Shown here one piece after another: positions 31,501-34,500 of a DNA stretch of 64,000 nt. Position 1 is the stretch's first letter. Every line of letters begins with the position of its first letter. The stretch is from contig NC_087245.1 of the NCBI RefSeq assembly GCF_037042905.1, forward strand, positions 3,660,001 to 3,724,000. The letters run 5' to 3'. The notes under the pieces are model-generated. The model had not been told where the DNA came from, did no database searches, and saw only the letters and a program-made list of their open reading frames with translations. This stretch comes from Lytechinus pictus (lineage: Eukaryota). The translations under genes were made by a program, and so were the position numbers.

Positions 31501-34500
31501 CCAAGATTTTTGTTTGTATTTCATTTTGTTCTAGGGTAACTGTGCATGTGATCCTACCAACTTCCCTCCTTCATTCTTTCCTCCTGGAGAGAAAGGATCT
31601 AAAGGAGATCCTGGTTCTCCTGGTCCTTTGGGACCTGATGGTGTGCCTGGAGCTCCAGGTGAGTTATTAACCCTTTGACTTCTGAATTCCCCTTACCCTC
31701 TTAGCTTCATGAAGTTATGTGTGAGTATATCAATCATTGATTTACATACTTTATGGAATTGCCCTTCTAGAAGAAAATTGGTAACATTTCTGAGTAAAAA
31801 TAACCACTTTTAAAGTGAGAGAAATGCAAACTTCACACCCAGAGTGTATGATGTGCATTTCAGTTTTCAGAATTCATTGTTAAAAAATAAGTTGACCTAC
31901 CACCAATTTCCTTTACTTTAGTTTTCTTGAATGTCTATGACCAGTTAATGATTCTTTTATTACAGTTGAAATAATCACCTTAGATCACAGTTGAAAGCTA
32001 ATAGTGTATTATGTTCTTTTAATCTCCACAGGTTTACCAGGTGTTCAAGGATTAAGAGGATTACAAGGTTATAAAGGAGATCAAGGTGATGGTGGGCTGG
32101 AAGGAAGACCGGTAAGATTCAAATATTGTCTCGATTCCTGAAGTATTTTATGATTTAGAGCTAATATCTAATGCTTCACAAGCAGAATGAAAGTTTTCTA
32201 TTTAAGTTGAAAATTGGCAAAAAGAAGCTGCTGAAAACTGCTTATCTAATAACAGAGCCAATGGAGTAAATTAGAAAGTCAAAAAGGGGCCTAAGCTTTC
32301 GATCCTAGCAGAATCTTTGCCTCCGACGAAGATTCTGCTAGGATCGAAAGCTTAGGCCCCTTTTTGACTTTCTAAGTTGAAAATTATTTGCTATATAAGT
32401 TTGCATTTTGTTAATTTTGTTTTCTGTTCAATATTTTGGTTTGCCCTCGCAACAACAGTTGTAAGTCACAAACTTTCCTCTTTTAAGAATAATTCTACAG
32501 AATTATTTTCAATAATATTATGGAGATATAGTTGTTGTTCACTGTATATGAAGCTTATTGAACAATTGTTGTTTGTTTGAATCCTTATCCTATTAATGTA
32601 GGGGGCTCCAGGGGTACCAGGAGTGCCTGGGGTAGCTGGAACTAAAGGAGAAAAGGTAAGATATATTTCCTTTTAAAACTCTCTTTAAGCCATGCTGTTT
32701 AATCCCTTTCCCCTACACCTCTCTCCTCTCTATGAATACGCATATGTTTACAGGGTGGACATTTCTTTCTTTCAGGTTGTTTGTTGTGTAGCCTTTTTTA
32801 ATTATAGAGATCATAGGCAGAAACATGATAAAAAATAAACAATAATAGAAAATTTATTTTGTTTAATGCATGTAAGTATGAAATTCAGCAAACAAATATT
32901 TTACTAACATTAGCATATGTACTAGTATGTATTTACCAGAAAACTTATTCACCAATATAAAAAAGTATGAGCACATTCACAATGAATTGAAAAGGACAAG
33001 CTTCGTAAAATAGGAAGCCATTGGAACATCAATGCTTGATCTGTTATCAACAATATTAATGGTGTACCATTTGAATGAAGGAATTCCGAATTAGTCTCAT
33101 TCACTATTCATCTGTGTTAACTACCATGCTGGAATAAAGATGTAATCAAATGAATCATTCAACTATTAATCATTCCTTCTTTATAGGGTGATCCAGGTGA
33201 TTTCTATGTGAATGATGAGGTATTTATAGGACCACCAGGTGAACCTGGTCCACCAGGCAGAGATGTAAGTAAAAAGGTTTCATCATGAATATATGTGATT
33301 CTTGCTAAGGATTCAACAGTATTTATTCTCTTTCCTCTTTTTTCTTTCTTGCCCTAATCTCTCTGTGTGTCTTCATTTATTTTTATACTCGCTTTTCTGC
33401 TTTTGCTCTTCATTTGTCCTCTAGAAATTTCTCTTGTTCATTTTTGTTCTTATTTATTTTTTAGATTTCCCCTTCCCTAAAGATTTTAAGCGACACTTTA
33501 GTCTTTAAACTTATAATGTCGATGCATGTATCAAGTCTATGCACTTAAGTATTTAGTCAATTTCTTTCTCCTTTTTTAGAAAAATAATCATAAAAAAAAA
33601 ATTAATCTAAATCAAAACAGTAACTTCTGCCAAAGCTGAGGTTATGAAAGTCCATGCAATTGTCACTCTGTCAAGCAGATGATGATGTTTCCAAGCAAAT
33701 CGATTTAGGCAGATTTACTCAACATGCTTAATTGTCATGAATATAAATGGAGATAATTGATATAGCTGTTAAAACTCCATTAGTGCTCAATACAGATGGC
33801 ACCCAGACATTTTGTACTTAACCCTATATAGGCCGGGGAGGGGACCTTGGAGGTGCCCCCTCAATGATTCGCGCAATATTTTCACTGTGCAAAATATTTT
33901 TTGCCGCGTCGCTTACTGACTTTTTACCTTCAATTCTTGCTCATCTTTTGAGATCAAAATTACACAGCATCTTGTAAGTGCTCAAAAGCGTGATTTTGTG
34001 TATAAAGTAAATGCATATATTTTTTCAACCAAAAATCATAAATGTATGATTATTTTTAATTTTGCTGGTCTAAATGGATTTATTTCATGCTGTTTATGAT
34101 TTCAAAAGAGTCCCCTATAAAGTTCATTGGAAAAAAACAATAAAAAAATACATAAGAAATTGCAAAAACAATATAATACATAAGAAATTGATCTGATATC
34201 GCAATTTTTTTCACATACATTTGCTTAGAACAGCACAGAGTTTCTTCACCAAAATTAGAACATTTGGTGCTTTATTGAGGGAGTTAAGAGGAAAGAGTAT
34301 GATTTTGCATACTAATTACACATAAATTAGCATAATCAATTAATTGCAATTTGCATGAAATTAATTACTATACAGTTTTGTAGATTATGTCCCAGACAAC
34401 CTGCTTGCCAATTTTTGATGCAATATCGCTCAGTCAACGGCCGAGATCTTGAGGGGGGCCTGTGAGGCCCCAAGGGCCCTATAATCTCCCAAAATACCCC

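What the first reader, a model, noticed from the sequence alone, without database searches (positions are those of the whole stretch)
32271..32375. Hammerhead ribozyme-like motif locked inside a perfect 47-bp hairpin in a collagen intron
Seen: two exactly complementary 47-bp arms around an 11-nt loop. The loop and right arm read GCCU-CCGACGA-A-GAUUC(UGCUA)GGAUC-GAAA-GC-UU-AGGC in the pre-mRNA sense. Established: Penelope-like retroelement pLTRs carry minimal type I hammerheads (CUGANGA..GAAA) with a palindromic stem III, which can work as dimers, and often insert with inverted partial copies. Inference: this is a young Penelope or retrozyme footprint. The antisense arm is transcribed first and would sequester the ribozyme, and the core has C in place of U4, so the host transcript may be doubly protected. 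The perfect stem could also be a Dicer or ADAR substrate.
Basis: partly seen in the sequence, partly recalled or inferred. Interest (0 to 1): 0.7.

Follow-up and report, generated by a model that had tools for sequence, protein, structure and literature searches.

The report
Head-to-head Penelope stub, variant hammerhead
The hairpin is real but is a short mirror-image stub of a young, very abundant Penelope-like jumping gene; its altered hammerhead letter is shared by the whole family and by other families, so it is not a safeguard of the collagen gene, and the stubs likely mark where the element's capped RNA begins.

Summary
The 47-bp arms, 11-nt loop and hammerhead-like reading are confirmed. 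They belong to a 157-bp insertion with a 13-bp target-site duplication in a spliced collagen intron. It consists of two truncated end pieces, joined head-to-head, of a Penelope-like retroelement with a Neptune/Nematis-type linker. The element has 1,343 exact motif hits and intact, nearly identical RT + GIY-YIG ORFs. This architecture is published. C at core position 4 is the family norm (141 of 145 copies) and recurs in at least two unrelated families with different, still-pairing stems. Copies run through the predicted cut, so templates were uncut. Family-level details not found in my literature searches: 28 of 29 inverted pairs combine one short end with one tail end, and 5' ends pile up just upstream of the motif, with an extra G in 72 of 100 (control 14 of 100), the signature of a capped RNA start. 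The scan has already reported such stubs, a family-wide core change and uncut templates on other DNA of this genome. 'Double protection' of the host and Dicer/ADAR action are unsupported. Ordinary locus; modestly useful family.

The parts
32203..32215 (+). Left copy of the 13-bp target-site duplication
   Evidence: Identical to 32373-32385
32216..32317 (-). Long arm: element 3' piece in element sense on the minus strand, positions about +6 to +110 (C3 = 0); lacks the first half of the hammerhead core
   Evidence: Matches the natural tandem copy L092; alignment of 30 loci
32216..32270 (-). Unpaired ~55-nt 'tail' between the two preferred 3' ends; in tandem copies it runs on into the 5' UTR
32271..32317 (+). 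Left 47-bp arm of the perfect hairpin (antisense to the motif)
32316..32375 (+). Short arm: element sense on the plus (collagen) strand, about -7 to +52; 2-nt overlap with the long arm at the junction, 3-nt overlap with the duplication
32319..32357 (+). Minimal type I hammerhead-like motif with C at core position 4 (32324); predicted cut between 32353 and 32354
   Evidence: Sequence, fold, features of PMC4209133
32329..32375 (+). Right 47-bp arm of the perfect hairpin
32373..32385 (+). Right copy of the 13-bp target-site duplication
32112..32601 (+). 490-nt GT..AG intron of a collagen gene that holds the insertion
   Evidence: Spliced joint in contigs X1, X15 and one X21 read; Pfam Collagen E 0.0015 and 0.00025 on flanking exons, below cut-off

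Best explanation
The hairpin is a 157-bp head-to-head stub of a young Penelope-like retrotransposon, flanked by a 13-bp target-site duplication, and was likely made in one insertion event in which both nicked target strands primed reverse transcription on uncut element RNA. Shown: the stub consists of two end pieces of an element with intact RT + GIY-YIG ORFs; 3' ends fall in two clusters (about +52 and +110), both beyond the predicted ribozyme cut; inverted pairs combine one end of each kind; C4 is family-wide. Inferred: one strand is primed at +110 and the other at +52; both cDNAs run toward a capped RNA 5' end at about -12; they are trimmed and joined through a short microhomology, which gives the perfect stem without any selection. 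Inferred: at this locus the motif does not cut the collagen pre-mRNA, because it is a lone minimal motif, carries U4C and is fully paired, and it is removed with the intron.
For: Family: 1,343 exact hits to the motif pattern, 0 for the reversed control; exact 12-16-bp duplications at 25 of 30 best-hit loci. Partner: GIY-YIG ORF ends about 930 nt upstream of the motif; five of 20 fetched loci have an open ORF of 906-909 codons, four compared differ by 1-13 of 2,664 nt; Pfam RVT_1 + GIY-YIG; tandem pLTR-ORF-pLTR in L092. Ends: 64 of 92 arms end at +46..+56, 26 at +105..+118, 2 elsewhere. All 30 loci picked by a pattern lying upstream of the cut run past it. 28 of 29 head-to-head pairs in 257 loci are short + tail, none short/short or tail/tail, no tail-to-tail. 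5' ends: 35 of 92 at -13..-5; 7 of 39 5'-UTR-bearing loci start at -8..-12. Extra G before -12 in 72 of the 100 listed of 138 matches, against 14 of 100 listed of 104 at -9 and 17% expected from flanks; in 6 of 14 non-inverted loci with a clear duplication the G is absent from the target. An extra G marks 5' capping in L1 insertions (PMC11702581, passage). Both strands are cut and extended, RT starts at two internal sites, and the ribozyme is dispensable for insertion in a lizard element in vitro (PMC11167929).
Against: Twin priming is not shown: fold-back self-priming followed by endonuclease resolution at +52 could give the same ends, and PMC3846280 favours self-priming (passage). About 80 of the 257 loci were chosen by the tail, which biases toward pairs with a tail, and two of the 29 pairs (L061, L062 long) link separate neighbouring pieces. 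The start site rests on genomic junctions only: RNA-seq showed no pile of starts or ends and almost no reads on the 5' UTR. In 5 of the 14 loci the G is shared with the target. Two copies (L189 of 81 tail arms; L224 of 39 5'-UTR loci) begin at the predicted cut, so rare cleavage is not excluded. Six of the 30 best hits share this copy's exact junction.
Confidence: 0.85

Rival explanations
1. The 157-bp hairpin unit is itself a small non-autonomous element that was re-copied as a unit.
For: L001-L004, L006 and L008 share the same junction at different sites with different duplications; 2 of 87 loci chosen without regard to the junction have it.
Against: Those hits were ranked by likeness to this copy; most junctions differ; L276 has the same junction letters with the arms swapped (tail arm keeps the core), which points to recurrence through microhomology; inverted units span 127 to 3,266 nt.
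Confidence: 0.07
2. Host-protective lock: C4 and the antisense arm were selected to keep a ribozyme from cutting collagen pre-mRNA.
For: Pairing of the motif's stems is abolished in the intron context; U4C lowers activity in vitro (PMC3088659, passage).
Against: C4 in 141 of 145 copies and in intact full-length elements; most stubs have no antisense arm (20 of 81 tail arms have one); lone minimal motifs did not cleave in vitro (PMC4209133).
Confidence: 0.04
3. The hairpin is a functional Dicer or ADAR substrate (miRNA-like or endo-siRNA source) for the host.
For: A 47-50-bp perfect stem in a transcribed intron; small-RNA silencing of Penelope families is described in a rotifer (PMC3846280, figure legend).
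Against: Rfam miRNA matches are 41-45 bits against gathering scores of 96-100; it is a recent insertion with no sign of conservation. Incidental siRNA production or editing stays possible but would be a family-wide by-product.
Confidence: 0.04

Closest known systems
Insertion units of endonuclease-positive Penelope-like elements (Craig et al. 2021, PMC8557442; Arkhipova et al. 2013, PMC3846280; passages read)
   Same: RT + C-terminal GIY-YIG ORF, pseudo-LTRs in partial tandem, adjacent inverted 5'-truncated copy, tail at one end only, palindrome at the junction, target-site duplication; CX2-5CxxC linker as in Neptune/Nematis.
   Different: Tail about 55-60 nt rather than 30-40; duplications 12-16 bp rather than 8-10; a large share of copies are 60- or 120-nt stubs with a sharp 5' boundary and an extra G, which I did not see described.
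Minimal type I hammerheads (min-HHR) of metazoan PLEs (Cervera and de la Pena 2014, PMC4209133; parts 1-2 of 4 read, one supplement searched)
   Same: 4-bp helix I, 5-6-bp helix II, extra base between positions 9 and 10.1, G10.1-C11.1, palindromic 15.2-16.2, U at 17 as in several listed motifs; pairs on opposite strands already noted.
   Different: Core position 4 is C in the whole family; no core with C4 turned up in supplement file 2 (file 1 could not be searched). U4C is known from a viroid (PMC3088659).
Poseidon element of Anolis carolinensis in vitro (Frangieh et al. 2024, PMC11167929; parts 1-2 of 4 read)
   Same: Two internal RT start sites bounding the tail, AT-rich targets, both strands extended, uncut RNA as template.
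   Different: There the ORF starts inside the hammerhead; here a 5' UTR of about 560 nt separates motif and ATG, and the core has C4.
Non-LTR retrozymes (bioRxiv 10.64898/2026.07.22.740005; part 1 of 5 read)
   Same: Type I hammerhead derived from PLE pseudo-LTRs.
   Different: Retrozymes are tandem units with complete cores; this copy is a single inverted stub. Short tandem derivatives of the family exist elsewhere.

Membership tests
Endonuclease-positive Penelope-like element | Single ORF with RT and C-terminal GIY-YIG endonuclease linked to this repeat | tested here: met
   888-aa ORF, Pfam RVT_1 E 1.3e-8 and GIY-YIG, in other copies; none in the window
Endonuclease-positive Penelope-like element | Pseudo-LTRs in partial tandem | tested here: met
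   L092 and L078 carry motif + tail both upstream and downstream of the ORF
Endonuclease-positive Penelope-like element | Inverted 5'-truncated copy, tail at one end, target-site duplication | tested here: met
Neptune/Nematis clades | CX2-5CxxC linker between RT and endonuclease | tested here: met
   Cx4CxxC in all intact ORFs; feature named in PMC8557442
Neptune/Nematis clades | Placement in an RT tree | not tested
   No reference PLE proteins were brought in; Neptune versus Nematis is open
Minimal type I hammerhead (min-HHR) | Core C3-U4-G5-A6-N7-G8-A9 | tested here: not met
   Position 4 is C in 141 of 145 copies; all other core positions are met
Minimal type I hammerhead (min-HHR) | Extra base after A9, G10.1-C11.1, GAAA, palindromic 15.2-16.2, U16.1-H17, helices I and II | tested here: met
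Minimal type I hammerhead (min-HHR) | Covariation in helices I and II | tested here: inconclusive
   None within this young family. Across families, three C4 families have different stems that still pair (4+5-6, 4+5, 2+7 bp), but they share no detectable nucleotide similarity, so this is not a counted alignment
Minimal type I hammerhead (min-HHR) | Self-cleavage (as dimer or protein-assisted) | not testable with these tools
   Genomic copies run through the cut; 2 copies start at it
Non-LTR retrozyme | At least two tandem units with complete hammerheads | tested here: not met
   One complete motif, inverted arrangement
MITE / fold-back DNA transposon | Terminal inverted repeats at both ends and a fixed short duplication | tested here: not met
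   Hairpin is asymmetric with a 55-nt tail; duplications vary 12-16 bp; arms are the end of an RT element. Family features recalled
miRNA precursor (Rfam) | Score at or above the family's gathering threshold | tested here: not met
   44.9 bits against 96

The most novel reading that the evidence does not exclude
The 'solo hammerheads' that litter animal genomes are run-off cDNAs of the capped 5' leader of Penelope-like RNA. In this family the hammerhead-like motif occupies the first 50 nt of the transcript and overlaps an initiator and a DPE-like internal promoter (RGWYV match exactly at +28 to +32 from the initiator A). A dimeric RT primes one target strand at each of two internal sites. C4 is a natural, slow or protein-gated hammerhead core shared by several PLE families rather than decay.
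Probability: 0.4. Interest if true: 0.55.

Novelty: new variant of a known kind. Interest (0 to 1): 0.3.

Why it matters
This locus does not matter for the collagen gene as far as can be seen. The family is a good natural read-out of an unsettled question: how Penelope-like elements make their tandem and inverted ends, and what their hammerheads do. End statistics point to a capped start, two priming sites used once each per inverted insertion, and uncut templates. Intact, nearly identical ORFs make an in vitro test possible. Hammerhead descriptors that fix U4 would miss over a thousand motifs in this genome alone.

Tried and rejected
Rfam scan: no hammerhead model hit. No PLE coding sequence in the window. 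RNA runs: no RNA holder listed in the index. Raw reads X19, X20, X21 (about 6 in 100 read) gave no start or end peaks; 75-77% of reads on the element and 99-100% of reads on the window motif run on into unlike sequence, so they come mostly from other copies, and the collagen was barely covered. A-to-G rows there cannot be told from copy differences. Whether the individuals behind X1/X15 carry this insertion is unknown, so presence/absence polymorphism was not tested. A search for sister PLE families by protein was not completed; a motif pattern was used instead (142 hits against 39 for the reversed control, so many listed hits are chance). The cap-G idea for ends at -9 was rejected (14 of 100). 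Lunse et al. 2017 on small PLE hammerheads is not held and may already list C4 variants; supplement file 1 of PMC4209133 could not be searched. Literature searches for U4C (1 paper), C4 core strings (nothing on PLEs in the listing), PLE start sites and extra G with Penelope found no description of the cap-G or C4 points; the library lacks most subscription papers.

Full report
Observation. The arms are exactly complementary over 47 bp (32271-32317, 32329-32375) around an 11-nt loop, the longest such repeat in the window, and far more stable than shuffles. The hammerhead-like reading is correct, with C at core position 4. No Rfam hammerhead model matches. The site is a 490-nt GT..AG intron (32112-32601) of a plus-strand collagen gene, shown by spliced contigs in two runs and one read. 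G000 is an 812-Mb animal genome; earlier notes of the scan call it a sea urchin, which I did not test.

The unit is larger than the hairpin. A search of the genome gave 1,427 first-look candidates, and the 40 scored all matched about window 32215-32375. Aligned copies share sharp outer ends and differ at the loop. Exact 12-16-bp duplications flank 25 of 30; here it is 13 bp (32203-32215, 32373-32385). The insert is a long arm on the minus strand (+6 to +110, counting C3 as 0) and a short arm on the plus strand (-7 to about +52), overlapping by 2 nt.

Parent element. The motif pattern has 1,343 exact hits, 0 for the reversed control. Upstream of longer copies lies a GIY-YIG endonuclease ending about 930 nt before the motif. 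Five of 20 loci fetched around it have an open ORF of 906-909 codons with RT, a Cx4CxxC linker and GIY-YIG; four compared differ by 1-13 of 2,664 nt, so the family is young. L092 and L078 show motif and tail upstream of the ORF as well, i.e. pseudo-LTRs in tandem. The linker points to the Neptune/Nematis group (PMC8557442, passages); no tree was built. Inverted 5'-truncated copies, a one-sided tail, junction palindromes and duplications are described as standard for these elements (PMC8557442; PMC3846280, passages; PMC2377424, passages).

The C at position 4. It is not a change at this locus: 98 of the first 100 listed matches and 141 of 145 distinct motif copies have C. The rare U copies are most simply CpG decay (inference). 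RNA reads over the motif show no U4 at 5 in 100 or more. In contigs of a second organism the free position 7 has changed in the majority, while no change at position 4 is among the rows shown; 73 weaker rows were not shown. A pattern for C4 cores with a different position 7 gave 142 hits against 39 in the control. Among them are unrelated families with different but pairing stems, palindromic 15.2-16.2 and U16.1: one with C4 in 19 of 19 (a GIY-YIG remnant lies upstream in L337), one with C4 and an intact core start in 6 of 8, and two single loci. Other listed hits have no stems and are chance. Within our family there is no covariation. U4C is known to lower activity in vitro while leaving a viroid infectious (PMC3088659, passage). 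I found no report of it in PLEs, but the main survey of small PLE hammerheads was not available.

Ends of copies. Among 92 arms from 87 loci chosen by a pattern in the motif's 3' half, 64 end at +46..+56 and 26 at +105..+118. The predicted cut is after +30. All 30 loci chosen by a pattern upstream of the cut run past it, so integrated templates were uncut at that motif, as found in vitro for a lizard element (PMC11167929). One of 81 tail arms and one of 39 5'-UTR loci begin at the cut, too few to tell from chance. Of 29 head-to-head pairs in 257 loci, 28 join a short end to a tail end; none is short/short, tail/tail or tail-to-tail (partly tail-selected, two pairs link separate pieces).

5' boundary. 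35 of 92 arms start at -13..-5; 13 of 81 tail arms start exactly at -12; 7 of 39 loci that carry the 5' UTR (40 of 43 places examined) start at -8..-12. Where a copy starts at -12, the preceding base is G in 72 of the 100 listed of 138 (counted by hand), against 14 of 100 listed of 104 for starts at -9 and 17% expected from flanks (the two patterns allow different letter sets). Of 32 such loci inspected, 21 have G, and only one is an internal substitution; in 6 of 14 non-inverted loci with a clear duplication the G is not in the target, in 5 it is shared with it. In L1 such an extra G reflects the mRNA cap (PMC11702581, passage). The sequence at -11..-6 fits the initiator consensus TCAKTY, and the 3' strand of stem II fits the DPE consensus RGWYV at +28..+32 from its A (consensus and position from PMC1538597, passages; Drosophila data; a loose 5-mer, so only suggestive). 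RNA-seq could not confirm the start: no peaks and almost no 5'-UTR reads in two libraries.

Mechanism. Shown: parentage, two 3' end classes, their pairing, uncut templates, family-wide C4, the 5' pile-up with extra G. Inferred: a capped RNA starts about 12 nt before C3; RT primes at +52 or +110 of this leader (or of the downstream copy, giving long inserts); when both nicked strands are extended, one from each site, the two short cDNAs are joined head-to-head through a microhomology, leaving a perfect stem, a one-sided tail and the duplication. Fold-back self-priming with endonuclease resolution is the main mechanistic alternative (PMC3846280). In the collagen pre-mRNA the motif's stems have pairing probability 0.0, and lone minimal motifs did not cleave in vitro (PMC4209133), so cutting of the host RNA is unlikely, without any need for selection.

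Earlier notes. After forming this reading I saw that the scan had reported, on other DNA of this genome, head-to-head stubs, a family-wide core change, uncut templates and stubs as copies of the first ~60 bases. These are unchecked AI notes, probably partly the same family, and not independent support. The short listings do not mention the extra G, the strict short/tail pairing or C4 in several families.

Verdict. Real, explained, ordinary at this locus: a new variant (C4 core) of a known kind. Interest 0.3; the most novel reading (capped-leader run-off stubs, promoter-overlapping C4 hammerheads) has probability 0.4 and would deserve about 0.55.

Noticed in passing
L337, L342, L349, L356-L364 (also L344, L351, L365-L368; L347, L350): Other repeat families with a C4 hammerhead-like core and different, pairing stems; one has a GIY-YIG remnant upstream and inverted pairs.
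   Followed up: partly
L222/L223, L224, L238, L245/L246, L218, L300, L303, L306: Short tandem derivatives of the family (units of about 250-370 nt that join the 5' UTR to the 3' repeat, each with its own junction), resembling retrozyme units; L224 starts at the predicted cut.
   Followed up: partly
L092:4683-4993: The element's 5' UTR holds a ~160-nt duplication, each copy with pyrimidine tracts ending in AG, candidate splice acceptors of a retained intron.
   Followed up: no
window 26458-26632: 27-bp inverted repeat around a second hammerhead-like motif on the minus strand near 26549, with the canonical U4 and a 6-bp stem II; probably a stub of another PLE family.
   Followed up: no
window 33818-34517: 21-nt terminal inverted repeats 658 nt apart with TTAA at both outer ends, like a piggyBac-type MITE (family feature recalled).
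   Followed up: no
window 31118-31477: Degenerate GAT/AAT microsatellite in the preceding collagen intron.
   Followed up: no
L094:1-2055: A 685-codon open frame that looks like the RT of a different non-LTR retrotransposon lies next to a copy of this family.
   Followed up: no
window 32253: This copy's tail has a private substitution and 2-nt deletion relative to the family, while the paired arms are unchanged.
   Followed up: no
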